Program-made: the position numbers and the translations under genes
In this document: piece after piece, positions 7,742 through 50,924 of the stretch
Layout of the letters: each line of letters opens with the position of its first letter
Numbering within the stretch: the stretch's first letter is position 1
Source: Candidatus Magasanikiibacteriota bacterium
GTDB lineage: Bacteria; Patescibacteriota; Patescibacteriia; Magasanikbacterales; GWA2-37-8
DNA: 64,000 nt
Assembly: GCA_030650025.1 (NCBI GenBank)
Contig: JAUSEN010000029.1
Span: forward strand, 287-64,286
Direction of reading: 5' to 3'
Notes under the pieces: generated by a model
Told to the model about the DNA's origin: nothing
Database searches by the model: none
The model's input: only the letters and a program-made list of their open reading frames with translations

Positions 7742-7771
7742 TTTTTGTTAATTACTAATCTTTCACACACT

Positions 7772-7852
7772 ATGTCCAAAGTATTAGGCATTGACCTCGG
7801 CCCGCCTGCGCTCGCGAGAGCTACGGCGAGGCGAAGCACAACTAATTCTTAA
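7772..7852 (+). pseudogene. Second relic of the dnaK 5' end (10 codons conserved)
   Basis: atgtccaaagtattaggcattgacctcggc encodes [10 protein letters not shown], then diverges ([16 protein letters not shown]). It shares an identical 18-nt stretch, acacactatgtccaaagt, with relic 1 that includes 7 nt upstream of the ATG. Confidence 0.65.
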
Positions 7853-7881
7853 TTTATTTACTTTTAATTTATTACAAAATT

Positions 7882-34546: not shown

Positions 34547-35530
34547 ATGAAAAAAGCTCTTATTACCGGCATCAGCGGCCAGGACGGTTCGTATTTAACG
34601 GAGTTTTTGCTAAAAAAAGGTTATGAAGTGCACGGCATCGTGCGGCGGAGCAGTACCGTGGTTCGTAGCCGGCTGGATTTTATCTCTCCAGAGGTTAATC
34701 GCCAGAATTTATTTTTGCATTATGGCGATCTCTCGGACGGTTCCTCGCTATTCAAATTAGTAAATCGTATTAAGCCGGACGAGGTCTATAATTTGGGGGC
34801 GCAAAGCCATGTCCGGATTAGCTTTGATATTCCACTTTATACGGCTGATGTCGATGGTTTAGGCACTCTGCGCCTGCTCGATGCCATTCGCGATTCACAC
34901 AGCCAGGCCAAATTTTATCAGGCCTCATCGAGCGAAATGTTTGGGCTAGTTCAAACCACTCCCCAAAACGAAAGTACGCCCTTTCATCCCCGCAGTCCCT
35001 ATGCTTGTGCCAAGGTATTCGCGCACTACCAAACTATAAATTACCGTGAAAGCCACGGTCTGTTTGCTTGTTGCGGCATTCTTTTTAACCACGAATCACC
35101 GCGTCGCGGCGAAAACTTTGTGACCAGAAAAATTTGTAAAGGCGTCGCCGAGATTAAAAGTGGTAAACGCCAAAAGATTACCCTCGGCAATCTAGACGCC
35201 CGGCGCGATTGGGGATATGCGCCCGAATATGTTGAGGCCATGTGGCTTATGCTCCAGCAACAGACGGCGGATGATTATGTTATCGCGACTGGCGAAACCC
35301 ATTCGGTAAAAGAATTTGTCGAAGCGGCCTTTGCTTATGTGGGACTCAATTGGCAAGAGCACGTGGAGTTTGACCAAAAGTATACTCGCCCCGCCGAAGT
35401 GGATTTATTACAGGGCGATTATTCTAAAGCCAAACAAAAACTGGGTTGGGAACCAAAAGTCAAATTTAAAGATTTGCTCGCGATCATGATGGAGGCGGAG
35501 CTCACAGGAGAGCCTGTCTCGAGGCTATGA
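34547..35530 (+). CDS. gmd: GDP-mannose 4,6-dehydratase
   Basis: [60 protein letters not shown] and [10 protein letters not shown] are canonical Gmd. The start is the ATG at 34547. Confidence 0.9.
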
Positions 35531-36630
35531 AAGTTTTATATTTTGTTCACCATCTGTTTGGCAAAGACGGTTGGAGTGTTAACGCCCTTAATACTATTGA
35601 GCCCATGGTATCCATGGGTAGGCAGTGCGTAGCAATAGTTAACGAAGTTAACCCCGCCATACCAGTAGTACAGATCGCAATTTTACGCAAGCCCCTGCGG
35701 TATTTGCGATATCCTTTTTTAATTTTTTTAGATCTTTTTAAAATTTTAAAGATAATAAAAAAAGAAAAACCCGATGTCATTCATTTTTTAGTTGAGCCAT
35801 ACGCATTTTTTTCTTATTTTATAAAACTTTTTTTCAATTGCAAACAGGTTCTTACTGTTTGCGGCACTTACGCGGTTTTGCCATATAACCAATTACGAAC
35901 AAAATTATTAAGCATATTATATTACCGCTCCATCGATTTTATTATTTCTATAAGCGGATATACCGCGAGCCGATTACTTAAAATTTTGCCAAAACTTAAA
36001 GATAAAGTCATTGTCATTCCCGCTGGTATTAATTGGGCTGATCTTAAGTCCGCCGCCGCGGCCACCAAACAGACGCCCCAGACAGCCATATCGATAGTTT
36101 TTACCGGTCAAATTAAAGAGCGCAAGGGAGTGCTCGAGGCTCTTCAGGCTCTTAGCCTTTACAAAAATACCTACCATAGTAATTTTATTTTTTCTATTAT
36201 CGGGCAATACGACCGCCATCAAAAATATTGGCAGGAACTAAACGCCTACATCACTGCCAACGGCCTAACAAATAATGTGGAATTTTGCGGGTTACTCCCG
36301 GAAAGTCAGAAGAATGAAAAATTAAAAAATGCCGATCTATTCATAATGCTTTCGCGGGTGGATGGCGACCATTTCGAAGGTTATGGGTTGGTATACCTCG
36401 AGGCTAATGCTTTTGGTGTGCCGGTGATTGGCCCGAATGATAGTGGTACTACTCAACCTATTAAAGATGGTTATTCCGGGTATGTCGTGACCCCGTCGGA
36501 TCCCCGGCAAGTTGTCGAAAAAATTGATTTGATTCTTAATAAACACAGCATCAACGCCCAAAATTGTTTACTCTGGGCAGAGGCTCACGATCGTCGCAAA
36601 ATTTCCCAACAAATTTTTGCACTTTACTAG
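35527..36630 (+). CDS. Glycosyltransferase family 4
   Basis: [37 protein letters not shown]. Confidence 0.6.
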
Positions 36631-36665
36631 TAGCTAATTATTATAATAAGCAAGCGTTTGGCATC

Positions 36666-36694
36666 TTGCATAGTTTCAAGAAAACCTATATAGT
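36666..36694 (+). promoter_or_regulatory. Sigma-70-type promoter: TTGCAT, 17 bp spacer, TATAGT upstream of the HAD/DAHPS-like/KdsB-like unit
   Basis: TTGCAT at 36666-36671, a 17-nt spacer, then TATAGT at 36689-36694. It lies 24 nt before the ATG at 36719. Confidence 0.45.
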
Positions 36695-36718
36695 ATTCTT
36701 GTTTTTAAGCCATAAATT

Positions 36719-37366
36719 ATGCCCCTGCAATGGATTTTATTAGATATTGATAATTGCCTGTATAATGGGCTAAATCCAGACGGAAGTTTTACGGAATACA
36801 AACAAAGTATGCGCAACGCTGATGAGGCTTGGGCCGTGATATTAACGAAAGATTTGGCGGGATTGCGTAGTTACCGGCAAAAACGCGCCGAAGAAGTGGG
36901 TATGGATAAGTCACTTTTAGAATTTCTTTTTATCAAGACAGGGAAAGAGTATGGCATCGACCAATTGGCTACTCATCGCAATGGCCCGAACGGCTATAAA
37001 CCTGAGCAGTTCTTAAAGTCCGATCCTGAATTAGTCGCTTGTTTAGGCAATTTGCAAAACGCGGGTTATAAAATTGCGGCGCTCACCGACAATCCAGCCG
37101 GCAAAAGAGTGCTTACAGTGCTTGGACTTTTGCCCAAAATTATTAAAGAAGAGTTTGTCTTTGATAGCACCAGAATGGGCATGCTAAAAAATAAGGAATT
37201 TTATAAAAATGTTTTAGAAATATTGGCCGCTCAAGCTAATGAAGCAATTATGTTCGGCGATTCTCTTTCTTCTGACATTATTCCGGCCGAAGCCGTTGGC
37301 ATTAAGGGTCAATATGCCAAAAATCGTGATGAATTAATGCAACATTTGTGCGCCTTGCTGAAATAA
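36719..37366 (+). CDS. HAD-superfamily phosphatase (possible sugar-acid phosphate phosphatase)
   Basis: The N-terminal DxD motif is LLDIDNCLY and the C-terminal motif is MFGDSLSSD. The protein has a HAD fold. Confidence 0.55.
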   Translation: MPLQWILLDIDNCLYNGLNPDGSFTEYKQSMRNADEAWAVILTKDLAGLRSYRQKRAEEVGMDKSLLEFLFIKTGKEYGIDQLATHRNGPNGYKPEQFLKSDPELVACLGNLQNAGYKIAALTDNPAGKRVLTVLGLLPKIIKEEFVFDSTRMGMLKNKEFYKNVLEILAAQANEAIMFGDSLSSDIIPAEAVGIKGQYAKNRDELMQHLCALLK

Positions 37367-37367
37367 T

Positions 37368-38414
37368 ATGGCTATTAAAATCATCAAAAAAATTCCCAGC
37401 CAAGAGGAAATAGAACAAGCCGCCCCCCTTTCGGCTGTCGGTTACACGGCTATTTTAAAAGATCGTCAGGAAATTTGTGACATTTTATCCGGGAAGGACG
37501 ATCGCCTGCTGTTAATTATTGGACCTTGCTCGGCGTGGCCCTTTGACGCGGTGATTGAATACGCCACTCGTCTAATTTCTTTAAAAAAAGAATTGAATTT
37601 GGAAAAAGAATTTAAAGTTATCATGCGCGTTTATACCCAAAAGCCGCGCACCACTACTGGCTGGAACGGCCCCATTAATCAACCCGATCCGCTGGGCCAA
37701 CCCGATATTGCCGGTGGTATTAAATATACCAGAAAATTAATGGTCCAGCTTATAGAAATGGGTCTGCCCATCGCCAATGAAGCGGTTTTCACTCATGATA
37801 GCATGAAGTTTTTCCCGGATCTACTTTCTTGGATGGCGATTGGCGCGAGGAGCAGTGAAGATCAGGAACATCGCATATACGCTTCGGCGGTTGATTGCCC
37901 GGTCGGAATGAAAAATCCCACCAGTGGATCCATAAAAATCGGCGTTAATAGCATTATCGCGGCGCAAACATCTCAAGTCGCCGTATTTCACGGCCACCAA
38001 ATTGAAAGCAGCGGCAATAAATATGCCCACTTAGTTTTGCGCGGTGGAGAAAGTGGCCCCAATTACGCGACCAAGTTTGTGCTGGAAGCGGGGGACTTAA
38101 TGAAAAAAAATAATATTTTAAATCCGGCTATTATTATTGACGCTAGCCACGATAACTCCAAAGTTGATGGCAAAAAAAATCCTGAACAACAAATTAAGGT
38201 CGTTCAGGAATCAATCGCTGAACTTAAGTCAAACTTGGCTGTAAAAAATTTAGTGAAGGGGTTTATGATCGAAAGTTTTATAAAATCCGGGTCGCAAACA
38301 ATTGATCCGCGTTATCCAGAATCAATTGATCGGGGGGGGCTGTCGGTAACCGATCCCTGTATAAATTGGGAAACAACGGCGGAACTTTTATCGGCAATTT
38401 TTAAAAAAATTTAA
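37368..38414 (+). CDS. DAHP-synthase class I (AroG-type) homolog: 3-deoxy-ulosonate phosphate synthase
   Basis: LLLIIGPCSAWPFDAVIEYA...KVIMRVYTQKPRTTTGWNGPINQPDP closely follows the AroG IGPCS / RVYFEKPRTTVGWKG signature, at about 350 aa. Confidence 0.6.
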   Translation: MAIKIIKKIPSQEEIEQAAPLSAVGYTAILKDRQEICDILSGKDDRLLLIIGPCSAWPFDAVIEYATRLISLKKELNLEKEFKVIMRVYTQKPRTTTGWNGPINQPDPLGQPDIAGGIKYTRKLMVQLIEMGLPIANEAVFTHDSMKFFPDLLSWMAIGARSSEDQEHRIYASAVDCPVGMKNPTSGSIKIGVNSIIAAQTSQVAVFHGHQIESSGNKYAHLVLRGGESGPNYATKFVLEAGDLMKKNNILNPAIIIDASHDNSKVDGKKNPEQQIKVVQESIAELKSNLAVKNLVKGFMIESFIKSGSQTIDPRYPESIDRGGLSVTDPCINWETTAELLSAIFKKI

Positions 38415-38415
38415 T

Positions 38416-39201
38416 ATGTTAACAACCATTGCCATTATTCCCGCCCGTATGGCCTCAAGCCGGTTTCCCGGTAAACCGCTCAAACCAATAGTCGGTATGC
38501 CGATGGTTGGTCATGTTTATAAAAGAACTAAAATGAGCGGGGTAGACGCGGTGTATGTCGCTACTTATGACCAGGCCATTAAAGATTATGTGGAATCAAT
38601 AGGCGGGCAAGCCGTTCTTTTACAGGAAAAATTCGAACGGCCAACGGAATGTACCGCGGCGGCATTGCAAGAGATCGAGAGGGCCACCGGAGAAACGATT
38701 AAAAATATTTTGATGATTCAAGGAGATGAACCGGTAATTTTTCCGGAGACAGTAAATGATTTAGCCGCGGCTGTCAGCCAAAGAGCCAGCGGAGTAGTAA
38801 ATATCGTTAATAATATTCGCGATCGGCAAATTTTTTTAGATAAAAATATTGTTAAAGCCGTTCTTGATCAGCAGGGGAGGATTATCTGGTTTTTTCGTTT
38901 GCCCAGTCTTTTTTGGCAAGAACGTATTGACGAACTTACATCGGTAAAAATTCAGACCGGAATTATTGGTTTTAAGAGAGAGGCCTTGCTTTCTTACGCC
39001 ATGCTTAAATCCACAGATTTTGAAAAGGTCAACTCGGTGGATATGTTTCGCTTTGTGGAACACGGCATTCCCGTGTCAGCGTTGCTTTCTCCGCAGCGCC
39101 TTTATAGCGTTGATACACCCAAAGATCTAGAGTTGGTGAGCGAAATTATGAGTAATGATCCCTTGTTTCAAAAATACAATCAGCATGATAATCGAGGTTA
39201 G
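38416..39201 (+). CDS. KdsB/NeuA-family cytidylyltransferase (CMP-3-deoxy-ulosonate synthetase-like)
   Basis: AIIPARMASSRFPGKPLKPIVGMPMVGHVYKR matches the KdsB N-terminal motif IIPARxxSxRxPGKPL. Confidence 0.65.
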   Translation: MLTTIAIIPARMASSRFPGKPLKPIVGMPMVGHVYKRTKMSGVDAVYVATYDQAIKDYVESIGGQAVLLQEKFERPTECTAAALQEIERATGETIKNILMIQGDEPVIFPETVNDLAAAVSQRASGVVNIVNNIRDRQIFLDKNIVKAVLDQQGRIIWFFRLPSLFWQERIDELTSVKIQTGIIGFKREALLSYAMLKSTDFEKVNSVDMFRFVEHGIPVSALLSPQRLYSVDTPKDLELVSEIMSNDPLFQKYNQHDNRG

Positions 39202-40753
39202 CGTTATTGGCGAAGAGGTGCGTGTAATTGCGGGAAAAATGCAGAAGATTTTTTTTATTCGCGAAAATTTATCTTTGATGTTGGCAAAATTGAAAATGAT
39301 AAATGGTCTTAAATTTAAAAACGGCTCTCCCATCTACGATTCTAGAAAATATGGTTCGATTTCTCTTTGGAGTTTTTTTCAGGATTTTATTTTTTGGAAA
39401 CGATTGTATTTTTTTGTTAGGTTTTCCGAAGTAATTAAATTTATCACGGAGCAAAAATATACTCATATTTTAGTTAATAATCGAGAGTTGGCGGGCGTGC
39501 TACAAATGCTGCCCGGATTGAAGGTAAAATCAAAAAAGAATTTTTTAGCCTATCCCGCGCGATTGGTTTTAAAAGTATTTGGTTTTTTTATAAGTCATTT
39601 GGCAATTTTAATCCTATGGCTAAGAAAAACTCCCTACCTCGTTTATTCTCCGGATATTGCCGTTGGAAAATATGCTTGCGATTTTCGCTTAACCTCACTT
39701 TACGAATTTTTAATGTCGCGAAAAATTAAATTTCAAGAAATATTTCATACTAATATCGGGCTTAATTTTATCAGAAATTTTGTGCGGCGCTGGCGCGGCG
39801 TTTTATACTTGGAATCTTTAGTATTTTTTACCTCCAAAACAGATTTTAATCCTGCGGCGGTATCCTGGCCAAATTTGCCTGATTATGAAAGATTTTTTTT
39901 GGGTTTGGTTTTGAAAGAAGTGGATCGCATGTGTAATCACAGCGCTAAATTAATTAAAAAATTGATATTTATATTTAAGTACAGTAATGTAAAAAAATTG
40001 GCGGCTTTGGATGACATGAGGTACACCAACGAGCTCATTATTGCTTGCCGCGAAAATAGTATCGCCACTTTTGGTTTTCAGCATGGGCAATTTACGAAGT
40101 ATCATATCGGTTGGATGCATTATGATATGCCGCCAGAAAACAGCGTAACCTTTGACACCCTGTTTGTCTGGAATTCCTATTGGCAAAATATTCTTTGCCA
40201 GTATAGTCTTAAATATACCCTAGAGAACACAGCCATTTCGGGGGCACCTAAGAAATTTTTTGGCGAAGTAAAAAAGCGCGATAAACCAGCGTCACCAAAA
40301 AATCTGCTCATTTTATTTGAGTCATTTGTTTCTAAAAACGAAATTCAGCCTTATATCAATCGACTATTGGATTGTGGGTTTGTTTTATATTTAAGTTTGC
40401 GTCCCGACCTGCCTAAAAATGCGCAATTACAGCGTTATGGCTTAGTTGGTAATAATAGTGTGCAAGTGGTAAGTAAATTGGATGCTCAAATTATAAGCGA
40501 GCTTGATGCCGTTGTGGGTGTGCATAGTACGTTACTTAGTGAATTGATGTATTATGATTTGCCGGTTTTTCAAATTGAGTCCAGTTTTGATTTGGGGCAT
40601 CAATTAAGAGATAATTCGCTGTCAATTGCCTTGCCTAAAAATTTTACAACCGAATATATTAATTCGGCGATTGATTCATTCCAGTCAAAAAAGAACGTAG
40701 TTTGGCCATCGGCGCCGTCAATTAACGAAACATATCAAAAAATATTTAGTTAG
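39185..40753 (+). CDS. Hypothetical protein (about 520 aa). Possible glycosyl or ulosonic-acid transferase by context only.
   Basis: Large soluble ORF overlapping the end of the kdsB-like gene. I recognise no motif. The start is set at the ATG at 39185. Confidence 0.3.
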   Translation: MIIEVSVIGEEVRVIAGKMQKIFFIRENLSLMLAKLKMINGLKFKNGSPIYDSRKYGSISLWSFFQDFIFWKRLYFFVRFSEVIKFITEQKYTHILVNNRELAGVLQMLPGLKVKSKKNFLAYPARLVLKVFGFFISHLAILILWLRKTPYLVYSPDIAVGKYACDFRLTSLYEFLMSRKIKFQEIFHTNIGLNFIRNFVRRWRGVLYLESLVFFTSKTDFNPAAVSWPNLPDYERFFLGLVLKEVDRMCNHSAKLIKKLIFIFKYSNVKKLAALDDMRYTNELIIACRENSIATFGFQHGQFTKYHIGWMHYDMPPENSVTFDTLFVWNSYWQNILCQYSLKYTLENTAISGAPKKFFGEVKKRDKPASPKNLLILFESFVSKNEIQPYINRLLDCGFVLYLSLRPDLPKNAQLQRYGLVGNNSVQVVSKLDAQIISELDAVVGVHSTLLSELMYYDLPVFQIESSFDLGHQLRDNSLSIALPKNFTTEYINSAIDSFQSKKNVVWPSAPSINETYQKIFS

Positions 40754-40754
40754 T

Positions 40755-41480
40755 ATGTCTCTAATTAAGTTAGTAAAAAAAATTAGCGGTGATTTTAAAC
40801 AAATTTTTGGTTATCCAAAATGCGATTATGGGACAGATTATACTGTGGATTACCAAAAATATTGGTTACAGCGGCGCGGCCTTGGTCCCGTATCTTTAAG
40901 CCCATGGCAAACCCAGCGGGCCGCTTGGGCGTTAAGTTTATTCGAAACGGGATCATCCATTCTTGACGTTGGTTGGAAGGACGGTGACGTGGTGGGATTT
41001 TTATGTGAACAAGGGGGTTATAAACGTATTGACGCCAGTATTGATGAAAATGTTCTATTGCTCGCCAAAAGCCTTGGTATTAGTAACGTTGGTATCAATT
41101 TTTCTGACCTTGAAGCCATTGATAAGTTGGGAATGGCGGACTATATTTTGGGTTTTGATATCTTAGAGCATGTGGGCAATAGCGAGACTGTTCTTTTCCA
41201 CTTACTTAAGAAAGCTAACAAAGGCCTGTTGGTTTCGTTTCCCAACTCCGGTTATTTTGCGCATCGACTGCGCCTTCTGTTTGGCCGTTTTCCCTTGCAG
41301 TGGCGCACGCACCCTGGCGAGCACCTTCGTTTTTGGACAGTGCGCGATATGAGATTTTGGTTAAATTCTTTAGGTTTAAAAAAACAAGCGCGAATAATTT
41401 TATATGAAGGGATACCGATTTTAAACAAAGTTTTCCCTAAATTATTTGCTCAAGGAATCCTCATTTTTATCAAAAAGTAA
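40755..41480 (+). CDS. MetW-like SAM methyltransferase paralog with a degenerate SAM motif I
   Basis: FPNSGYFAHRLRLLFGRFPLQWRTHPGEHLRFWTVRDMRFW is shared with the downstream paralog, but motif I reads LDVGWKDGD instead of DIGCGDG. Confidence 0.5.
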   Translation: MSLIKLVKKISGDFKQIFGYPKCDYGTDYTVDYQKYWLQRRGLGPVSLSPWQTQRAAWALSLFETGSSILDVGWKDGDVVGFLCEQGGYKRIDASIDENVLLLAKSLGISNVGINFSDLEAIDKLGMADYILGFDILEHVGNSETVLFHLLKKANKGLLVSFPNSGYFAHRLRLLFGRFPLQWRTHPGEHLRFWTVRDMRFWLNSLGLKKQARIILYEGIPILNKVFPKLFAQGILIFIKK

Positions 41481-41487
41481 TTAGGGT

Positions 41488-42204
41488 ATGAAGCAGTTTT
41501 TGGTTAGATTAAAAAATGATGTCAGCCAGATTTTTGGCTACCCCATATGCGCGTATGGCCAGGATTTTTCGGTTGATTACCAAAAATATTGGGAGCGTCG
41601 CCGCGATAGTGGTACGGCCGTACTAACCGCGTGGCAGAAACAACGCGCGGCTGAGGCTCTTAAAATTATTACTCCCGGCGCCACGGTTATGGACATTGGC
41701 TGTGGCGATGGCGCCATTCTTGATTTCATGCGTTCAGCCTCCCGTATCAAAGGCATCGGTGTCGATATTGATTCATCAATTTTAGAGAGTGCCAAAAAGT
41801 TAGGTGTTCAAACAGTCTGCGCGGATATTAATGATCTTTCCGCTGTCGACGCGTTTCCCGCAGCTGATTATATAATAGCTTTTGAAGTTTTAGAGCATAT
41901 GCCCAGCCCAGAAAGATTTATCGCGCATATTCTCAAGAAGGCTACGCAGGGGCTCATTTTTTCCGTGCCAAACACCGGTTATTACGCGCATCGCTTGCGC
42001 CTGGCGTCTGGTCGTTTTCCTCTCCAATGGGTAGCGCATCCCGGCGAACATCTTCGTTTTTGGACCGTGCGCGATATGCGTTTTTGGGTCGCGTCGCTCG
42101 GTTTAAAAATAGAGAAATTAGTCTTGTATCAGGGTCTGCCTGTTCTCAATAAAATTTTTCCTAAATTATTTAGCCAAGGCATGATTGTTTTTATTAAAAA
42201 ATAA
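41488..42204 (+). CDS. MetW-like class I SAM-dependent methyltransferase
   Basis: Motif I MDIGCGDGAILDF, plus VPNTGYYAHRLRLASGRFPLQWVAHPGEHLRFWTVRDMRFW. Confidence 0.55.
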   Translation: MKQFLVRLKNDVSQIFGYPICAYGQDFSVDYQKYWERRRDSGTAVLTAWQKQRAAEALKIITPGATVMDIGCGDGAILDFMRSASRIKGIGVDIDSSILESAKKLGVQTVCADINDLSAVDAFPAADYIIAFEVLEHMPSPERFIAHILKKATQGLIFSVPNTGYYAHRLRLASGRFPLQWVAHPGEHLRFWTVRDMRFWVASLGLKIEKLVLYQGLPVLNKIFPKLFSQGMIVFIKK

Positions 42205-42208
42205 TTAT

Positions 42209-43675
42209 ATGAAATTATTTTTAATTAACTGGGGTCATCGTGAACCGCTTACCGCGGACATTGCTCATGATTTAGAAACACAAGGTCACCAAGTTTTGTA
42301 TTGGGTGCGTTCTAATAAGAATTTTAGAGTTGATGCTTCAAAATACCCCCATACCATTATTCAGGATTGGAACGATGCCATGGCGTGCCGGGCGCCCCAG
42401 GGGATAGACAAAGAAGCCTTTCCAGTACCCAGTAAAAATTTGCTAGCGCAATTCGCGGCCGAGGAACTTTTGGCTGTTTGCCTGCTCGACCGCGACTACC
42501 CGGAATATTCCGCTACTCAAAAGAGCGAAATTTATCATGATTATTTTCGTTTTTGGTATGGGCTAATTTTTCAAAAAAAGCCTGATGTCATTGTTTTCTC
42601 CGATACCCCGCATCGTGTGGTGGATTTCATGATTTATTCTGTTGCCAAAAAATTAGGTCTGCCGGTTATTTTATTTGGCGCTACAGTCATCGGCGACCGG
42701 AGTTATATCGCCTATGACTACGACCAAGGCTTTACCACGGGGTTTAAGCCCGGTCAAAACGCGCGCCTCGAGAATTTGAGTGTTGACATCGCGCTATATT
42801 ATAAAAATCAAACATCAGGCGCGGTTGATAACACTCCAATTTATATGAAACAGCAGGACGCGTACTTTTCTTGGGCGCGCAAATTAAAACGCAAGCTCAT
42901 GCACGCGCCTCGTCTTTTAGTCAAAATGGACCTCGTCGGACCCTTACAAAGAAATTTGCGTGACCTGGCGACGTATATTGGCTTCGGTGACGATATGATC
43001 AAAAAATATTGTCAACTGCAAAAGCCAGTAGATTACAATAGTAAATATGTCTACGTCCCTCTTCATTATCAACCCGAGCGCACGACTATGCCACAGGGTG
43101 GAGTATTTATGGACCAAATTTTAATGGTGCGTACCGTGGCCGCCGCCTTGCCGGCCGGGTGGAATATCTATGTAAAAGAGCACCGCTCCCAGTGGTATTT
43201 ATCTGGTCGCAGGCCATCTCAATTTCGGGCCTCGGATTATTACGAACGCTTGGCACAAATTCGGAATGTTACTCTTATTTCCGCTAATGAGAGTAGCTTT
43301 AAATTAATTAAAAGCGCCCAGGCAGTTGTAACTGTAACCGGCACCGCGGGTTGGGAATCAGTTCTGCGCAATGTACCGTCGTTAATTTTTGGCGCGCCCT
43401 GGTATCAGGGTTGCCCGGGCACGTTCCGTGTTTCTAGCGTCGAAGACTGTCATCAATTTTTTGCCGATTTGCAATCGGGTTATAAAATTTCTCAACAAGA
43501 AATAATCGATTTTCTTTACTTTATTGATTGCCACACATTTCATGGTTATTTGCAGACATATCAGCATAGTCAAACAAAGTTGACGGAAATAGAAAATAGA
43601 AATAATATCTTGACAATTTTACTGAATGAAATTGAAAAATTATCGCCCCGAAAAGCTTCCGACTGGTTATTTTGA
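42209..43675 (+). CDS. Hypothetical protein (about 490 aa). Possible capsule-type glycosyltransferase by context.
   Basis: Large soluble ORF between the methyltransferase pair and pseB. The start is set at the ATG at 42209. Confidence 0.3.
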   Translation: MKLFLINWGHREPLTADIAHDLETQGHQVLYWVRSNKNFRVDASKYPHTIIQDWNDAMACRAPQGIDKEAFPVPSKNLLAQFAAEELLAVCLLDRDYPEYSATQKSEIYHDYFRFWYGLIFQKKPDVIVFSDTPHRVVDFMIYSVAKKLGLPVILFGATVIGDRSYIAYDYDQGFTTGFKPGQNARLENLSVDIALYYKNQTSGAVDNTPIYMKQQDAYFSWARKLKRKLMHAPRLLVKMDLVGPLQRNLRDLATYIGFGDDMIKKYCQLQKPVDYNSKYVYVPLHYQPERTTMPQGGVFMDQILMVRTVAAALPAGWNIYVKEHRSQWYLSGRRPSQFRASDYYERLAQIRNVTLISANESSFKLIKSAQAVVTVTGTAGWESVLRNVPSLIFGAPWYQGCPGTFRVSSVEDCHQFFADLQSGYKISQQEIIDFLYFIDCHTFHGYLQTYQHSQTKLTEIENRNNILTILLNEIEKLSPRKASDWLF

Positions 43676-43751: not shown

Positions 43752-44738
43752 ATGATTTTGGAATTTTTAAAAGGAAAGTCAGTTTTAGTTACCGGTGGCA
43801 CTGGCTCTTTCGGCCAAAAATTCATTAAAACTTTGCTTGCCAATAGCGCGGCGCGGCGTATTATTATTTTTAGCCGCGACGAATTTAAGCAGTCGGTTAT
43901 GGCCAGTGAGTTATCCGACCCGGAGCGTCGTTTACGATTTTTTTTAGGCGATGTGCGCGACCTTGATCGCCTACAGATGGCTTTCCACGGAGTTGATTAT
44001 GTTATACACGCGGCCGCGCTTAAGCAGGTCCCCCTGCTCGAATACAACCCATTTGAAGCTATCAAAACTAACATTATTGGCACTCAAAATGTTATTACCG
44101 CCGCTATTAACCAGGGAGTCGCTCGGGTGGTGCTTGTTTCAACCGATAAGGCGGCCAACCCGGCGAATCTATATGGCGCCACCAAGCTGTGCGCCGAGCG
44201 TTTGATGATTAGTGGCAATGCTTATGGTGCTCGCCAGACAATTTTCGGAGTCGTGCGATATGGCAATGTCGTTGGGAGCCGCGGGAGCCTAGTTCAGCTT
44301 GTTGAGGATCAACGCAAAACTGGCACGGTCATGCTGACTCATGAAGACATGACCCGATTTTGGATTACGCTTGATCAGGGCGTTAATTTGGTGCTCTTGG
44401 CGCTAGAAAAAATGCATGGCGGCGAAATTTTTATTCCGAAAGTGCCGAGCATGCGCGTCAAGGAATTTTTACAGACTTTTGCTCCAGACGCTAAAATTAA
44501 AATTATGGGTATTCGTCCCGGAGAAAAACTGCATGAAATTTTGGTTACTCCCGAGGAAGCGCGCCATGCCAAAGATTTTGATACTCATTATATTATTTTG
44601 CCGGAACATGCTAATTGGCCGCACCGTGATAAATACGATAAATTAGGCAAAGTCTTGCCCCACGATTTTTATTTTAGCAGTCAAAATAATACCGATTGGC
44701 TTACCGCGGAATCGCTTAAAAAATTATTGGGAATTTAG
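43752..44738 (+). CDS. pseB: UDP-N-acetylglucosamine 4,6-dehydratase (inverting), PseB/FlaA1-like
   Basis: KSVLVTGGTGSFGQKFIKTLL...RIIIFSRDEFKQ...GDVRD...STDKAANPANLYGATKLCAE matches the PseB/CapD short form. Confidence 0.8.
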   Translation: MILEFLKGKSVLVTGGTGSFGQKFIKTLLANSAARRIIIFSRDEFKQSVMASELSDPERRLRFFLGDVRDLDRLQMAFHGVDYVIHAAALKQVPLLEYNPFEAIKTNIIGTQNVITAAINQGVARVVLVSTDKAANPANLYGATKLCAERLMISGNAYGARQTIFGVVRYGNVVGSRGSLVQLVEDQRKTGTVMLTHEDMTRFWITLDQGVNLVLLALEKMHGGEIFIPKVPSMRVKEFLQTFAPDAKIKIMGIRPGEKLHEILVTPEEARHAKDFDTHYIILPEHANWPHRDKYDKLGKVLPHDFYFSSQNNTDWLTAESLKKLLGI

Positions 44739-44741
44739 GCT

Positions 44742-45893
44742 ATGATTATCCCATACGGTAGACAATCCATTGGGGCCGATGATATTGCCGCTGTGGAGGC
44801 GGTGCTCCGATCGGATCGGCTGACCCAAGGGCCCAAGGTGGAAGAGTTCGAGCAGGCGCTTGCCGAGTACTGCGGCGCTCGGTTTGCCGTCGTTACCAGT
44901 AGTGGCACTAGCGCGCTCCATACCGCGTATGCCGCTGTCGGGCTTAGCGCCGGAGATGAAATTATTTCTTCGCCTATTACTTTTCCGGCTACTACTAATG
45001 CCGCGCTTTGGCAGGGCGCTAAGCCAGTATTTGTGGATGTAGAATCAAAAACCGGGAATATCAATGTTGACTTAATTAAAGCCAGCATTACTTCCAAAAC
45101 CAAGGCCATTGTGCCGGTTGATTATACTGGTCGGCCGGTTAATTTGGCTGCCATTAAAAAATTGGCACAGCAGCATAATTTGGTGGTTATTGAAGATGCT
45201 TGCCAGGCGCTCGGCGCAACGTATCACGGCAAAAAAATCGGTTCTATTAGTGATTTAACCGTGTTTAGTTTTCATCCTGTCAAGAGTATTACCACGGGCG
45301 AGGGTGGAGCCGTGCTGACTGACAATGAAAATTGGTACAAAAAAATGAAGATGTTTGTTACCCACGGCGTAACAAAAGCACCGGATAATCTTACGATTTC
45401 TTCCCCCGGTGCTTGGTATTTTGAAATGCAATTATTGGGTAATAATTATCGTTTAACCGACCTACAAGCCGCGCTCGGCATCAGCCAATTAAAAAAGCTT
45501 GATCAGTTTGTGGCTCGCCGTCGTGAATTAGTTACGCGGTATAGCGCCGCCTTAGCAGATCAGGCCGCTATTGTCACTCCGCCGGCTGATTCTACTTCAG
45601 AAGAATCAGCGTGGCACTTGTATGTTATTCAGTTGCAAGGAAAATTATCAGGCCAGCGCGCGGAGATGTTCAAAAAACTGCAAGAGTCTGGGGTTGGAGT
45701 TCAAGTTCATCATATGCTTTCGTATTATCATCCATATTATCAGAAACTTGGGTATTTGCGTGGTGCCTGCCCACGGGCAGAGGCCTGGTACGAATCAATT
45801 ATTTCTTTGCCGCTATATCCTGATTTAACACTGGCGGATCAAGATTATGTCATAAAAACCGTTAAAGATTTCGCAGAAAGCTTGCAAAAATAA
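44742..45893 (+). CDS. pseC: UDP-4-amino-4,6-dideoxy-N-acetyl-beta-L-altrosamine transaminase (PseC-like, DegT family)
   Basis: MIIPYGRQSIGADDIAAVEAVLRSDRLTQGPKVEEFE..., FSFHPVKSITTGEGGAV, and the position directly after pseB. Confidence 0.75.
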   Translation: MIIPYGRQSIGADDIAAVEAVLRSDRLTQGPKVEEFEQALAEYCGARFAVVTSSGTSALHTAYAAVGLSAGDEIISSPITFPATTNAALWQGAKPVFVDVESKTGNINVDLIKASITSKTKAIVPVDYTGRPVNLAAIKKLAQQHNLVVIEDACQALGATYHGKKIGSISDLTVFSFHPVKSITTGEGGAVLTDNENWYKKMKMFVTHGVTKAPDNLTISSPGAWYFEMQLLGNNYRLTDLQAALGISQLKKLDQFVARRRELVTRYSAALADQAAIVTPPADSTSEESAWHLYVIQLQGKLSGQRAEMFKKLQESGVGVQVHHMLSYYHPYYQKLGYLRGACPRAEAWYESIISLPLYPDLTLADQDYVIKTVKDFAESLQK

Positions 45894-45902
45894 AGCTTTT
45901 GT

Positions 45903-46601
45903 ATGGAGAAAAATATTTTGGCAATCATTACCGCTCGGGGCGGCAGCAAGAGAATCCCGCGCAAAAATATTAAATTATTTTTAGGCCAGCCAATTATTAA
46001 ATATTCTATCGGGGCCTCGCTACAAGCTGGTATTTTTGCGGAAGTAATGGTATCTACGGACGATCGCGCCATCGCTGACGTGGCAGAAAGTTCCGGCGCC
46101 ACCGTGCCCTTTTTCCGTTCCGAAAAAAATTCCGGAGACCAGGCCACTACCGCTGATGTCATGCTAGAGGTGCTAGCTGAATATCAAAAACAAGGTAAAA
46201 ATTTTGATTATGTTTGTTGTTTATATCCGACCGCTCCCTTCGTAACCTCGGCCCGGTTGGTTGAAGCAGTAAAGTTATTAGACCAAACTGGTTCGGACGC
46301 CGTGTTGCCAGTAACCCGTTTTAGTTTTCCCATTCAACGAGCGTTAAAAATTGAGAGCAATCTTGTCAAGATGATCTGGCCAGAAAATTTAAATATCCGC
46401 TCGCAAGACTTAATGCCCGCGTATCATGACTGTGGACAATTTTATGCTTTAAATATTAAAAGTTTTTTGGAGCAAAAAAAATTATATATGGATAAAACCG
46501 CGCCGCTTATCATACCTGAGTCCGAAGTGCAAGATATCGACACCGAAGAAGACTGGAAGATTGCGGAAATGAAATATAAAATTTTACAAGCCGGCAAGTA
46601 A
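45903..46601 (+). CDS. pseF: CMP-nonulosonic acid synthetase (PseF/NeuA-family cytidylyltransferase)
   Basis: AIITARGGSKRIPRKNIK matches the acylneuraminate cytidylyltransferase N-terminal motif. Confidence 0.7.
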   Translation: MEKNILAIITARGGSKRIPRKNIKLFLGQPIIKYSIGASLQAGIFAEVMVSTDDRAIADVAESSGATVPFFRSEKNSGDQATTADVMLEVLAEYQKQGKNFDYVCCLYPTAPFVTSARLVEAVKLLDQTGSDAVLPVTRFSFPIQRALKIESNLVKMIWPENLNIRSQDLMPAYHDCGQFYALNIKSFLEQKKLYMDKTAPLIIPESEVQDIDTEEDWKIAEMKYKILQAGK

Positions 46602-46622
46602 ATATTTAATTAAACTAACAGC

Positions 46623-47705
46623 ATGGAGCCAATCGTTATCCAAACTCCAAAAGGAAAAAAGAAAATTGGGCCGGGAGAACCGTGTTTTATTATTGCTGAA
46701 ATGTCTGTGAATCATCAGCAGAATTATGAACAGGCGGCGGAAATTGTGCGCGCGGCGGCGCGCTCTGGTGCTGATGCCATTAAAGTGCAGACGTTTACGC
46801 CGGAGAGCCTCACGATTGATTCTGATAAACGCTGGTTTACACAGCGTAGCCAAGATAACCCGGCCGAGTGGGGCGGGCAGACTCTCTACCAACTATACCA
46901 AAAAGCCACCATGCCCTGGGAGTGGCAGCCCAAGTTACAAAAAATTGCCCACGAAGAGGGTATAGTATTTTTTTCTACGCCCCAAGACCAAGCCTCGGTT
47001 GATTTTTTGGAAACGTTACAGGTGCCGTGCTATAAAGTTGCGTCGTACGAAGCAGTGGATATTTCTTTGTTGCATATGGTGGCAAGAACCAAAAAGCCGG
47101 TTATTTTATCGGTGGGTTTTGCGACGCAGGACGAAATTAAAGAGGCGGTCCAGGCTTTGCGTTCAGGCGGCGGGGGCGATATCGCGCTCCTCCATTGCCT
47201 TACCTCATACGCAGACAACTCTGACTATGTTACCGCTAATTTGCGCACCATGCAGGATTTGCAAAAGCAGTACGGTGTGGTAGTCGGGTTTTCCGATAAC
47301 AATGGCGGCATAGAAATTCCCGTAATGGCGGTGACTGCCGGCGCCGCGATTGTTGAGAAGCACTTGGTGCTCGAACACGGCACCGGCGCGCTTGATGATA
47401 GGTTTTCTCTGTCAGTTGATGAGTTTGGCGAAATGGTAAAACGCATTCGTCGTGCTGAAGCAATTTTAGGCGCAGTGCATTATGGGCCGCAGAATGATTT
47501 TGAAAAACAGAATCTTTATTTTCGGCGGTCTTTATTCGTGGTCGAAGCCATTAAAAAAGGAGAGGTGTTTACTTTAAAAAATGTTCGTTCGATACGCCCC
47601 TCGCACGGCCTGCCGCCCAGCGAACTCGATAAAATTATTGGCAAAACCGCGGCCTGCGATATCGAGCGCGGCACGCCGCTAAACTGGGAAATAGTGTCTA
47701 GGTAA
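46623..47705 (+). CDS. pseI: Nonulosonic acid synthase (PseI/NeuB family) with a C-terminal SAF domain
   Basis: CFIIAEMSVNHQQNYEQAAEIVRAAARSGADAIKVQTF matches the NeuB N-terminal motif. The C-terminal about 60 aa (FTLKNVRSIRPSHGL) is SAF-like. Confidence 0.75.
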   Translation: MEPIVIQTPKGKKKIGPGEPCFIIAEMSVNHQQNYEQAAEIVRAAARSGADAIKVQTFTPESLTIDSDKRWFTQRSQDNPAEWGGQTLYQLYQKATMPWEWQPKLQKIAHEEGIVFFSTPQDQASVDFLETLQVPCYKVASYEAVDISLLHMVARTKKPVILSVGFATQDEIKEAVQALRSGGGGDIALLHCLTSYADNSDYVTANLRTMQDLQKQYGVVVGFSDNNGGIEIPVMAVTAGAAIVEKHLVLEHGTGALDDRFSLSVDEFGEMVKRIRRAEAILGAVHYGPQNDFEKQNLYFRRSLFVVEAIKKGEVFTLKNVRSIRPSHGLPPSELDKIIGKTAACDIERGTPLNWEIVSR

Positions 47706-47709
47706 TTGT

Positions 47710-49532: not shown

Positions 49533-49542
49533 AGATTAGCGC

Positions 49543-50241: not shown

Positions 50242-50244
50242 AAT

Positions 50245-50916: not shown

Positions 50917-50924
50917 AGTAAAGT

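What the first reader, a model, noticed from the sequence alone, without database searches (positions are those of the whole stretch)
36666..39201. Non-canonical 3-deoxy-ulosonic acid module: HAD phosphatase, AroG-type DAHP synthase homolog and KdsB-like CMP-transferase under their own promoter
The standard Kdo pathway is KdsD-KdsA-KdsC-KdsB. Here the aldolase slot is occupied by a roughly 350-aa class-I DAHP-synthase-like protein (IGPCS...RVYTQKPRTTTGWNGPINQPDP, the AroG signature) instead of a KdsA-type enzyme.
- A HAD phosphatase precedes it and a KdsB/NeuA-family cytidylyltransferase (IIPARMASSRFPGKPL) follows.
- No sugar-phosphate isomerase or other shikimate-pathway genes are nearby, and the module is embedded in a glycan locus.
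- The simplest reading is synthesis of a CMP-activated 3-deoxy-heptulosonate (from PEP plus erythrose-4-P) or an octulosonate made by a DAHPS-derived enzyme. This would be an unusual sugar-acid route for surface glycans.
- If the organism lacks the shikimate pathway (typical for small-genome lineages), the DAHPS homolog cannot be serving aromatic amino acid synthesis.
Basis: partly seen in the sequence, partly recalled or inferred. Interest (0 to 1): 0.7.

Follow-up and report, generated by a model that had tools for sequence, protein, structure and literature searches.

The report
Shikimate enzyme recruited for surface-sugar synthesis
A tiny-genome (CPR) bacterium carries a conserved three-gene unit in which a copy of the first enzyme of aromatic amino-acid synthesis sits with a phosphatase and a CMP-activating enzyme, which most likely makes an undescribed activated 7-carbon sugar acid for its cell-surface glycans.

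Summary
The three ORFs are real: HAD phosphatase 36719-37366, type I-alpha DAHP synthase 37368-38414, KdsB-like cytidylyltransferase 38416-39201. They are separated by single bases, in a ~34-kb glycan island of a Ca. Magasanikbacteria contig. The "own promoter" is not demonstrable.

The DAHPS keeps every catalytic, PEP-binding and KPRT-loop residue and passes the aroFGH cutoff; no KdsA model matches.

Its closest relatives split two ways. A 9-member clade (100/100 bootstrap) has the same HAD upstream in all seven members whose context was read, and the CTase downstream wherever the contig reaches. Relatives at 50-64% identity mostly sit in shikimate operons, including a complete one in another Magasanikbacteria.

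The cassette also carries a rare 532-aa GT-B-fold protein (15 homologs, no Pfam) and MetW-type methyltransferases.

In related loci the same CTase/GT-B core pairs with a divergent I-beta-like synthase plus KdsC-like phosphatase, or with HpcH/HpaI aldolases.

Best reading (~0.6): PEP + E4P -> DAHP -> DAH -> CMP-DAH -> glycan, a 7-carbon analogue of the Kdo pathway. I found no such nucleotide sugar in the searchable literature.

Untested: biochemistry, and whether this genome has a shikimate pathway elsewhere. New variant of a known kind.

The parts
36631..36718 (+). 88-nt AT-rich intergenic gap upstream of the HAD gene. It contains or abuts a weak sigma-70-like match (TTTGCA-17-TATTAT at 36616-36644).
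   Evidence: Promoter-like matches are not above the shuffled expectation, so promoter function is unproven.
36719..37366 (+). HAD-superfamily phosphatase (215 aa, C1-capped HAD-IA-like, not KdsC-type). Inferred role: dephosphorylation of the 7-phosphate of DAHP.
   Evidence: PF00702, 38.6 bits. There are no KdsC-model hits. Motifs DIDNC, TDNP, a conserved Lys and GDS..SD are invariant in 7 cassette orthologs at 53-63% identity. It lies immediately upstream of the DAHPS in every cassette locus.
37368..38414 (+). Type I-alpha DAHP synthase paralog (348 aa) belonging to a cassette-specific clade.
   Evidence: TIGR00034, 287 bits against a 173 cutoff. The best PDB hits are AroF, Neisseria DAHPS and AroG (E 1e-64 to 1e-60). 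GPCS, KPRTT, GAR, GMKN, LRGG, SHDNS, IES and TDPC are all conserved. Clade monophyly is 100/100. The private signature is ANEA.F.HDSMKFFP.
38416..39201 (+). KdsB-family CMP-ulosonate synthetase (261 aa), divergent from canonical CMP-Kdo synthetases.
   Evidence: PF02348, 119 bits. It is below all five NCBIfam KdsB cutoffs. PDB hits at E 1e-29 to 2e-17 are all KdsB. R10, R15, K19, Q98, D100 and D235 are conserved. The cassette clade has private changes in the sugar-binding domain.
39155..40753 (+). 532-aa protein (database start 39185, 522 aa) of a rare unannotated family with a GT-B fold. Inferred role: transferase for the CMP-activated sugar acid.
40755..41480 (+). MetW-type methyltransferase paralog 1. 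It has a degenerate SAM motif I (GWKDGD), which is conserved in the L001 and L002 orthologs.
   Evidence: PF07021, 32.1 bits; alignment.
41488..42204 (+). MetW-type class I SAM methyltransferase paralog 2 with a canonical GCGDGA motif. Inferred role: O-methylation of the sugar acid or glycan.
   Evidence: PF13489 and PF07021, 63-64 bits. Orthologs occur in all cassette loci at 45-76% identity.
42185..43675 (+). 496-aa KpsC/KpsS-like (PF05159 Capsule_synth) putative ulosonic-acid transferase. It may serve the adjacent nonulosonic-acid module rather than the DAHPS module.
   Evidence: PF05159, 31.9 bits against a 20 cutoff. Orthologs are found only in loci that also carry a second CTase or NeuB (L001, L002, L091).
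35527..36630 (+). GT4 glycosyltransferase. It is a conserved neighbour of the cassette.
   Evidence: PF00534, 98.6 bits. Orthologs occur in L091 (57%) and L001 (38%).

Best explanation
The three genes form a dedicated pathway to a CMP-activated 3-deoxy-D-arabino-heptulosonic acid (DAH). It is a 7-carbon analogue of the Kdo pathway.

Inferred steps:
1. The DAHPS paralog condenses PEP with erythrose-4-phosphate to give DAHP. The chemistry is inferred from fully conserved catalytic, PEP-binding and KPRT-loop residues.
2. The HAD phosphatase removes the 7-phosphate to give free DAH. This is inferred from synteny and intact HAD motifs.
3. The KdsB-family enzyme couples DAH to CTP to give CMP-DAH. 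This is inferred from homology, conserved catalytic residues and a remodelled sugar pocket.
4. The adjacent GT-B-fold protein transfers the sugar acid to a growing surface glycan, and the MetW-type methyltransferases probably O-methylate it. These roles are inferred from fold and co-occurrence.

The DAHPS was recruited by duplication from the housekeeping shikimate enzyme of CPR bacteria. The only clade-wide changes it acquired lie outside the catalytic residues.
For: (a) Enzyme identity. It scores TIGR00034 287 bits against a 173 cutoff, and no KdsA model hits at E<=0.01. Metal ligands (GPCS, SHDNS, IES, TDPC), PEP-binding residues (GAR, GMKN, LRGG) and the KPRTT loop all align with E. coli AroF.

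(b) Dedicated clade. Nine sequences are monophyletic in 100/100 NJ bootstraps, nested among CPR shikimate-operon DAHPSs.

(c) Synteny. All seven members whose context was read have the orthologous HAD immediately upstream: the window, L001, L002/L003, L006/L007, L088, L089 and L090. The CTase is downstream wherever the contig reaches; in L088 and L089 only the start of the CTase gene is on the contig. Relatives at 50-64% identity mostly sit among aroA/K/Q/E/B/C genes.

(d) Operon structure. One-base intergenic spacers join the three genes, and the next gene overlaps the CTase.

(e) CTase. The CTase is KdsB-like with catalytic R10, K19, D100 and D235 intact, but it falls below all curated KdsB cutoffs. 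The cassette clade has private substitutions in the sugar-binding domain: FSREPIPS to FFRLPSPFW, K164 to Q/E/D, K180 to I, E207 to N, and L212 to F.

(f) Modular synthase slot. The same CTase and GT-B core recurs with a divergent I-beta-type DAHPS-like protein plus a KdsC-like phosphatase in L091. It also recurs next to HpcH/HpaI aldolases plus a homolog of this HAD in L093. A phosphatase is retained each time, which suggests the ulosonate is made as a phosphate ester.

(g) Glycan setting. The module lies in a ~34-kb glycan island, and a GT-B protein accompanies the CTase in every locus that extends far enough.

(h) No isomerase. No A5P-isomerase (SIS) gene occurs in the window ORFs scanned or among the called genes of the cassette loci.
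Against: - No biochemistry exists. The acceptor substrate is inferred only from residue conservation.
- To my knowledge, type I-alpha DAHPSs can turn over 5-carbon sugar phosphates poorly, so a shifted specificity is not excluded.
- The variant cassette in L091 uses a KdsC-like phosphatase. Its CTase nests inside the cassette CTase clade, which could equally mean that both versions make a Kdo-like sugar.
- The rest of this genome could not be examined, so the cassette DAHPS might also be the cell's only DAHPS and serve aromatic synthesis as well.
- DAH has, as far as I could find, never been reported in a natural glycan. That is why the finding is interesting, but it also lowers the prior.
Confidence: 0.6

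Rival explanations
1. This is the same kind of dedicated glycan module, but the product is not DAH. The recruited DAHPS paralog has shifted to another aldose phosphate (for example arabinose-5-P, giving a Kdo-type octulosonate, or a modified tetrose or pentose phosphate). The CTase then activates that acid.
For: - The closely related L091 locus keeps the CTase (54% identity, nested in the same clade), the GT-B, the methyltransferase and the second transferase, but uses a KdsC-like phosphatase (124 bits to the KdsC model) with a divergent synthase.
- The cassette DAHPS clade has private changes, including a one-residue insertion, in loop 137-148.
- To my knowledge, promiscuity of I-alpha DAHPS toward 5-carbon phosphates has been reported.
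Against: - The KPRT loop, which distinguishes DAHPS from the KANRS loop of KDO8PS (the KANRS motif is from my own knowledge), is intact, as is every other catalytic residue.
- No KdsA model hit was found.
- The L091 synthase's best models are type I-beta DAHPS, not KdsA.
- No SIS/API gene occurs in the window or in the cassette loci examined.
- The CTase fails all curated KdsB cutoffs.
Confidence: 0.2
2. The DAHPS is simply the organism's housekeeping first enzyme of aromatic amino-acid synthesis and happens to lie in a glycan island. The HAD and the CTase serve an unrelated sugar.
For: It passes the aroFGH equivalog cutoff. It is 64% identical to a DAHPS inside a complete shikimate operon of another Magasanikbacteria. 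The rest of this genome could not be checked.
Against: - The cassette DAHPSs form their own 100/100 clade with private substitutions.
- HAD-DAHPS-CTase order with 1-nt spacing (in the window) is conserved across contigs that differ by up to 40% in protein sequence.
- No aro gene lies within 64 kb, whereas most shikimate-type relatives are operon-embedded.
- No other ulosonate synthase (KdsA, or a NeuB unaccounted for by the downstream NulO module) is available in the locus to supply the KdsB-like CTase.
Confidence: 0.08
3. The module makes a CMP-activated intermediate for a non-glycan small molecule, such as a DAHP-derived natural product, rather than a glycan building block.
For: DAHPS paralogs are known in secondary-metabolite clusters (for example PhzC; PMC8772962 appeared). 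Some cassette loci carry B12-radical-SAM enzymes and AsnB-like amidotransferases.
Against: The cassette is always embedded among glycosyltransferases, flippase/Wzy genes and nucleotide-sugar enzymes. A GT-B-fold protein is its most constant partner. No core natural-product enzymes were seen in the window.
Confidence: 0.07

Closest known systems
Kdo pathway (KdsD-KdsA-KdsC-KdsB) of Gram-negative bacteria
   Same: The logic is the same: a PEP-dependent aldol synthase of the DAHP_synth_1 superfamily makes a 3-deoxy-2-ulosonate phosphate, a HAD phosphatase frees it, and a KdsB-family enzyme makes the CMP-sugar for a transferase. The CTase is a true KdsB homolog with conserved catalytic residues.
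   Different: - The synthase is a type I-alpha DAHPS, not KdsA.
- The phosphatase is a capped HAD-IA-like enzyme, not KdsC.
- No A5P isomerase is present.
- The CTase lacks the E. coli KdsB sugar-contact residues H181 and Y185 and fails the curated cutoffs (Kdo contacts from PMC12199768).
- The host is a CPR bacterium, a group generally considered to lack LPS (my knowledge).
- The predicted product has 7 carbons and is epimeric at C5 relative to Kdo.
Housekeeping type I-alpha DAHP synthase (AroF/G/H; the CPR- and Neisseriales-type subfamily NF009395)
   Same: Same fold and the same catalytic, metal, PEP and KPRT residues. It is 55-64% identical to operon-embedded enzymes.
   Different: It forms a separate clade (100/100). 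Its genomic partners are a phosphatase and a cytidylyltransferase instead of aroB, aroA and the rest. It has the private substitutions D137N, N144D, +M146 and G148F. These lie in the segment that aligns with the E. coli AroF 143-155 / AroG D146-Q151 region, where changes alter feedback inhibition (AroG D146N and Aro3 Q159: PMC10349828). The regulatory consequence was not tested.
Animal and Bacteroides-type Neu5Ac-9-P / Kdn-9-P pathways (synthase, HAD phosphatase, CMP-sialate synthetase)
   Same: The three-step architecture is identical: a phosphorylated ulosonate, then a HAD phosphatase, then CMP activation. A Kdn-9-P phosphatase model (NF058599) even matches the KdsC-like phosphatase of the L091 variant.
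   Different: Those pathways use NeuB-family synthases and 9-carbon products. Here a NeuB-based module is present separately downstream (46623-47705) with its own CTase (45903-46601).
[quoted passage not shown]
   Same: It is the only natural 7-carbon 3-deoxy-2-ulosonic-type glycan residue I could find (PMC4019464).
   Different: Dha is a diacid with lyxo (Kdo-like) configuration, and no DAHPS-based route to it is known to me. The same paper calls the mono-acid lyxo analogue 'Kdh' non-natural. DAH would have the arabino configuration and a C7 hydroxymethyl group.
TagF/TarL-type and GT38 polysialyltransferase GT-B enzymes; KpsC/KpsS (PF05159) beta-Kdo transferases

Membership tests
Type I-alpha DAHP synthase (TIGR00034 aroFGH) | Score above the curated equivalog cutoff | tested here: met
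   287 bits against 173, and NF009395 344.9 against 343. It is below the AroG-specific (238 against 568) and AroH-specific (275 against 463) cutoffs.
Type I-alpha DAHP synthase (TIGR00034 aroFGH) | Metal ligands Cys/His/Glu/Asp, PEP-binding Arg/Lys residues and the KPRT(S/T) sugar-phosphate loop | tested here: met
   GPCS, SHDNS, IES, TDPC, GAR, GMKN, LRGG and KPRTT align with the AroF residues.
Type I-alpha DAHP synthase (TIGR00034 aroFGH) | Functional context: operates with aroB through aroC in chorismate synthesis | tested here: not met
   No aro, phe or tyr gene lies in 64 kb. The neighbours are a HAD and a CTase on all cassette contigs. The genome-wide situation is not testable with these tools.
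Type I-alpha DAHP synthase (TIGR00034 aroFGH) | Catalysis of PEP + E4P to DAHP | not testable with these tools
   Requires an enzyme assay.
KDO8P synthase (KdsA) | Match to KdsA family models, and the KANRS-type loop | tested here: not met
   No KdsA model appears among NCBIfam hits at E<=0.01. The loop is KPRTT. The KANRS criterion comes from my own knowledge.
CMP-Kdo synthetase KdsB | Homology and catalytic residues R10, R15, K19, D100 and D235 (E. coli numbering) | tested here: met
   PDB hits at E 1e-29 to 2e-17 are all KdsB. All of these residues are conserved.
CMP-Kdo synthetase KdsB | Score above curated KdsB cutoffs | tested here: not met
   203.7 against 255, 188.7 against 193, 151.1 against 234, 134.5 against 281, and 123.8 against 155.2.
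CMP-Kdo synthetase KdsB | Kdo-contact residues Q98 and Y185 (C5-OH) and H181, as in E. coli KdsB (PMC12199768) | tested here: not met
   Q98 is kept, but Y185 becomes I and H181 becomes Q. These changes are shared by the whole PRK13368-like subfamily, so they are not diagnostic on their own. The cassette clade adds private changes (S156F, K164Q/E/D, K180I, E207N, L212F).
CMP-Kdo synthetase KdsB | Partnership with KdsA/KdsC/KdsD | tested here: not met
   None of these are in the window or the cassette loci.
KdsC (HAD-IIIA YrbI) phosphatase | Match to KdsC models | tested here: not met
   The window HAD hits only generic HAD-IA-type models below their cutoffs. The L091 variant, by contrast, does carry a KdsC-like protein.
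HAD phosphatase superfamily | Motifs I-IV (DxD, T/S, K, DD/GDxxxD) | tested here: met
   DIDNC, TDNP, a conserved K and GDS..SD are invariant in 7 orthologs. PF00702 scores above its cutoff.
KpsC/KpsS beta-Kdo transferases (PF05159, GT107) | Pfam gathering threshold | tested here: met
   This holds for the 496-aa protein only: 31.9 bits against 20. The 532-aa protein has no hit (not met), and only a generic GT-B fold is shown for it.

The most novel reading that the evidence does not exclude
CMP-3-deoxy-D-arabino-heptulosonate is a genuine, previously unrecognised nucleotide sugar, and (O-methylated) DAH is a component of CPR cell-surface glycans.

More broadly, the PRK13368-like 'KdsB' subfamily would mark an unrecognised class of CMP-activated 2-keto-3-deoxy acids. 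The synthase slot in these modules is interchangeable: recruited shikimate DAHPS I-alpha, a divergent I-beta-like enzyme, or HpcH/HpaI pyruvate aldolases. The products would be installed by a new GT-B transferase family, of which the 532-aa protein is a member.
Probability: 0.45. Interest if true: 0.8.

Novelty: new variant of a known kind. Interest (0 to 1): 0.65.

Why it matters
- **Chemistry.** If correct, this adds a 7-carbon member to the short list of CMP-activated ulosonic acids (Kdo, sialic, Kdn, pseudaminic and legionaminic acids).
- **Evolution.** It would show a primary-metabolism enzyme, the gateway to aromatic amino acids, being duplicated and rewired into envelope glycan synthesis.
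- **CPR biology.** It gives a concrete, testable handle on the surface chemistry of CPR/Patescibacteria. These organisms are mostly uncultured, depend on attachment to host cells, and have essentially uncharacterised glycans.
- **Annotation.** It warns annotators that a "3-deoxy-7-phosphoheptulonate synthase" call in these genomes is not evidence of aromatic amino-acid biosynthesis, and that many "KdsB" calls are probably not CMP-Kdo synthetases.
- **Enzymology.** It nominates a new GT-B family as an ulosonic-acid transferase.

Tried and rejected
1. **Exact look-up failed.** The exact-sequence look-up of the window DAHPS found nothing, so the source assembly and its other contigs could not be reached. 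The genome-contig scan did not return the window's own genome. The genome-wide shikimate question therefore stays open.

2. **A CTase clue that did not hold.** I first read Y185 to I, H181 to Q, E210 to D and Q211 to M as evidence for a non-Kdo sugar, since Y185 contacts the Kdo C5-OH (PMC12199768). The same residues occur in all 112 non-cassette relatives, so I dropped them as cassette-specific evidence. Only the private changes are used.

3. **Promoter claim.** The consensus scan shows no enrichment over shuffles. I rejected the claim as unsupported.

4. **Feedback-loop mapping.** The clade-specific loop aligns with the AroF 143-155 segment, but the whole CPR-type subfamily already differs from E. 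coli there (for example K in place of AroF Q152). I cite this only as a suggestion. The metabolic-engineering review did not list the mutations, and PMC10349828 supports only AroG D146 and Aro3 Q159.

6. **L091 synthase.** The 312-aa synthase of L091 has no PDB sequence match and only sub-threshold DAHP_synth_1 and I-beta hits. Its substrate cannot be assigned.

7. **Literature.** The Heyes 2009 KdsB paper was not held. Searches for DAHPS plus cytidylyltransferase, for CMP-heptulosonate, for HpcH plus cytidylyltransferase, and for CPR ulosonic acids found no precedent.

8. **KdsA reading rejected.** I considered and rejected the idea that the middle gene is a mis-called KdsA: it is far above the aroFGH cutoff and has no KdsA hit.


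Full report
**1. What is in the sequence**

ORF listing shows three co-directional genes with one-base spacers:
- 36719-37366 (215 aa)
- 37368-38414 (348 aa)
- 38416-39201 (261 aa)

The next gene is 39155-40753; the database start for the identical protein P0241 corresponds to 39185. It overlaps the end of the third gene.

Family assignments come from Pfam and NCBIfam.
- The first protein is a HAD hydrolase (PF00702, 38.6 bits). It is of a generic capped HAD-IA type and is not KdsC.
- The second is a type I-alpha DAHP synthase. It scores 170 bits on PF00793, 287 bits on TIGR00034 aroFGH (cutoff 173), and 344.9 on NF009395 (cutoff 343). It is well below the AroG-specific and AroH-specific cutoffs, and no KdsA model matches.
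- The third belongs to the KdsB family (PF02348, 119 bits). It is below every curated KdsB cutoff.

The "own promoter" is not demonstrable. There is an 88-nt AT-rich gap and a 9/12 sigma-70-like match at 36616-36644. Promoter-like matches in the region are at chance level (27 found against 21.2 +/- 4.7 expected).

**2. Source and setting**

The identical protein in the public collection is named as Candidatus Magasanikbacteria, a CPR/Patescibacteria lineage, on a 73-kb contig.

The window from about 22.4 to 56.4 kb is a glycan island. It contains:
- a Wzy_C-type ligase/polymerase
- six GT4 glycosyltransferases
- three DegT aminotransferases
- Gmd plus an epimerase
- the module under study
- a complete NeuB-type nonulosonic-acid module with its own cytidylyltransferase (43752-52156)
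- a Wzx-type flippase
- AsnB

tblastn with eight shikimate/Phe/Tyr proteins from a related genome finds nothing in the 64-kb window. No SIS-type isomerase was seen in any ORF scanned.

**3. The DAHPS is catalytically orthodox**

Alignment to E. coli AroF, to Neisseria DAHPS and to AroG structures gives E values of 1e-64 to 1e-60. Inspection of 192 homologs shows that all of the following are conserved:
- the metal ligands (GPCS, SHDNS, IES, TDPC)
- the PEP-binding residues (GAR, GMKN, LRGG)
- the KPRTT loop that binds the sugar phosphate

Nothing in the catalytic core distinguishes it from enzymes that sit in shikimate operons.

**4. It nevertheless belongs to a separate, context-defined clade**

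The closest public relatives (55-71% identity) are mostly from CPR lineages. Context look-ups show two situations.

- P0006 is 64% identical and also from Magasanikbacteria. It sits inside a complete aroA-aroK-aroQ-aroE-DAHPS-aroB-aroC-pheA-tyrA-CM operon.
- P0004, P0005, P0012, P0007, P0015 and P0003 (60-71% identity) each have the orthologous HAD directly upstream. Wherever the contig continues they have the KdsB-like gene directly downstream; on the P0007 and P0015 contigs only the start of that gene is present.

In a scan of one genome per species, 80 loci were retrieved. Only two carried the cassette, both on contigs already seen. About 45 had shikimate neighbours.

A neighbour-joining tree places the nine cassette-type sequences in one clade nested within the CPR shikimate-type enzymes. 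Monophyly is recovered in 100 of 100 bootstrap replicates.

The clade-wide private changes are few. They are I90T, D137N, N144D, a one-residue insertion (M146), G148F, V156M and F171Y. They give the signature ANEA.F.HDSMKFFP, where shikimate-type relatives have ADEA.FTHNA-KGF.

This segment aligns with AroF 143-155. That region contains AroG D146 and the residue equivalent to Aro3 Q159, which influence feedback inhibition (PMC10349828). A change in regulation is therefore plausible but unproven. I could not measure distances to the active site.

**5. The partners**

*HAD.* The HAD orthologs (53-63% identity) keep DIDNC, TDNP, a conserved Lys and GDS..SD invariant. They are therefore expected to be active phosphatases.

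*Cytidylyltransferase.* The strong PDB sequence hits are all KdsB, at E 1e-29 to 2e-17. R10, R15, K19, Q98, D100 and D235 are conserved.

E. coli KdsB binds the Kdo C5-OH through Q98 and Y185 (PMC12199768). Here Y185 is Ile and H181 is Gln. These substitutions are shared by all 112 non-cassette relatives at 43-47% identity, so they characterise a whole subfamily (PRK13368-like) and not this clade alone.

The cassette CTases form their own clade of eight. They have private changes in the sugar-binding domain: FSREPIPS to FFRLPSPFW, K164 to Q/E/D, K180 to I, E207 to N, and L212 to F.

*The 496-aa protein.* It passes the KpsC/KpsS Pfam threshold. It occurs only where a second CTase or NeuB module is nearby, so it may belong to the 9-carbon pathway.

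*Methyltransferases.* MetW-type methyltransferases accompany all cassettes.

**6. The synthase slot is modular**

Locus L091 shares the GT4 (57%), CTase (54%), GT-B (46-47%), MetW methyltransferase (76%) and PF05159 protein (63%) with the window. For all of these except the CTase (60% in L001), the L091 copy is closer to the window than L001's is.

L091 nevertheless has no I-alpha DAHPS and no HAD-IA. In their place are:
- a 312-aa, very divergent DAHP_synth_1 protein. Its best models are type I-beta DAHPS at 37 and 27 bits, it has no PDB sequence hit, and it reads KSKTS where KPRT would be.
- a KdsC-like phosphatase (124 bits).

In L093, the sister CTase (50%) and a GT-B of the same family sit near two HpcH/HpaI pyruvate aldolases and a 35%-identical homolog of the window's HAD. 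L092 and L094 (CTases at 44%) also pair with HpcH/HpaI aldolases and not with KdsA.

So a CTase plus GT-B core persists while the enzyme that builds the keto-acid is exchanged. A phosphatase is present in the window-type cassette and in L091, L093 and L094. This fits a generic scheme: a 2-keto-3-deoxy acid phosphate is made, dephosphorylated and CMP-activated. It is the strongest argument that the window's DAHPS is working for the glycan pathway.

**7. Mechanism proposed**

The proposed route is PEP + E4P to DAHP (DAHPS paralog), then DAH (HAD), then CMP-DAH (KdsB-like CTase). The sugar acid is then transferred by the GT-B protein, with O-methylation by MetW-type enzymes.

What is shown:
- gene identities
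- conserved catalytic residues
- clade separation
- synteny
- the fold of the 532-aa protein

What is inferred:
- every substrate and product
- the role of the GT-B protein
- the methylation target

I put about 0.85 on "dedicated ulosonic-acid glycan module" and about 0.6 on the product being DAH specifically.

Rivals:
- a shifted acceptor, giving a Kdo-like or other acid (0.2)
- a housekeeping DAHPS located here by chance (0.08)
- a non-glycan small-molecule pathway (0.07)

**8. Comparison with what is known**

The module works like the Kdo pathway, and like the Neu5Ac-9-P and Kdn-9-P pathways. It is not a member of the Kdo pathway.
- The synthase fails KdsA membership.
- The phosphatase fails KdsC membership.
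- The CTase fails the curated KdsB thresholds and lacks two E. coli Kdo-contact residues.

The synthase is a member of the I-alpha DAHPS family by sequence and residues, but not by genomic role.

I found no report of a CMP-heptulosonate or of DAH in a glycan. The nearest natural 7-carbon residue is Dha, a lyxo-configured diacid. The same source calls the lyxo mono-acid "Kdh" non-natural (PMC4019464). A 2026 preprint on untargeted nucleotide-sugar profiling states that ulosonic acids are known only as CMP conjugates, and it reports new higher-carbon species, not 7-carbon ones. The literature tool covers open-access papers only, so absence of a precedent is not proof.

**9. Limits**
- The window's genome beyond this contig was unreachable, so presence or absence of a shikimate pathway, kdsA or kdsD elsewhere is unknown.
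- Trees are neighbour-joining on p-distance-derived Kimura distances, not maximum likelihood.
- Taxon labels of some TPA assemblies may be unreliable. For example, "uncultured Gammaproteobacteria" is the label for the 550-kb contig that carries the cassette.

**10. Verdict**

The finding is best classed as a new variant of a known kind of pathway, with a plausible new nucleotide sugar and a new transferase family attached. Interest 0.65.

Noticed in passing
L092:6022-8768, L093:4256-10224, L094:3117-8780: The PRK13368-like 'KdsB' subfamily comprises 112 relatives at 43-47% identity, all with Q181/I185/D210/M211 in place of E. coli H181/Y185/E210/Q211. In all three members looked up, the CTase sits next to HpcH/HpaI pyruvate aldolases rather than KdsA. 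Partners include DHQS-like, SIS_2, transketolase/transaldolase, HAD or 2-hydroxyacid dehydrogenase genes. One of the three is on a contig with topoisomerase VI (archaeal type). These may be CMP-activating enzymes for unknown 2-keto-3-deoxy acids that are widely annotated as CMP-Kdo synthetases.
   Followed up: partly
L091:7038-10912: This is a variant cassette in a close relative. A 312-aa, extremely divergent DAHP_synth_1 protein (sub-threshold, best models type I-beta DAHPS, no PDB sequence hit, KSKTS in place of KPRT) and a KdsC-like phosphatase replace the I-alpha DAHPS and the HAD-IA. The CTase, GT-B, MetW methyltransferase and PF05159 protein are retained.
   Followed up: partly
window 40755-41480 (and L001:11878-12552, L002:11911-12633): The MetW-type methyltransferase paralog placed right after the CTase/GT-B pair (directly after the CTase in L001 and L002) has a conserved degenerate SAM motif I (D[VI]GW[KR]DGD). 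The second paralog (41488-42204) has the canonical DxGCGxGA. The first may be a non-catalytic or re-purposed paralog.
   Followed up: partly
window 43752-52156: A complete NeuB-type nonulosonic-acid module lies here: PseB-like, PseC-like, a CTase, NeuB+SAF and an ATP-grasp protein. It also has a PIG-L deacetylase (50245-50916) and a formyltransferase-like gene (51518-52156). That combination resembles the Leg-type cluster linked to free-amine and N-formyl NulOs in Ca. Kuenenia in the SugarBase preprint.
   Followed up: no
L004:6805-16393 (also L005): Another Candidatus Magasanikbacteria genome carries a complete shikimate plus Phe/Tyr operon (aroA, aroK, aroQ, aroE, DAHPS, aroB, aroC, pheA, tyrA, chorismate mutase, aminotransferase). 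CPR bacteria are therefore not uniformly devoid of aromatic amino-acid synthesis.
   Followed up: partly
L001:2605-4020 and 7611-9002; L002:3900-5312 and 7765-9192; L088; L089; L093:2832-4241: Most other cassette loci have one or two B12-binding radical-SAM enzymes (class B methylase-like) just upstream of the HAD gene, together with an AsnB-like amidotransferase. tblastn with the L001 copies found no counterpart in the window. This suggests lineage-specific C-methylation or amidation of the glycan or the sugar acid.
   Followed up: no
window 18536-22264, 13799-15544 (-), 11416-12633: Three large ORFs (1242, 581 and 405 aa) lie just upstream of the glycan island and have no Pfam match. The 1242-aa one directly precedes the Wzy_C/TPR protein.
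   Followed up: no
L009 (= L006; contig CAYHBZ010000001.1, 550 kb): The record title says 'uncultured Gammaproteobacteria', yet the contig carries the CPR-type cassette with 47-60% identity to the Magasanikbacteria proteins. Several 'uncultured Neisseria sp.' labels also appear among the shikimate-type relatives. The taxon labels of these TPA assemblies may be unreliable.
   Followed up: no
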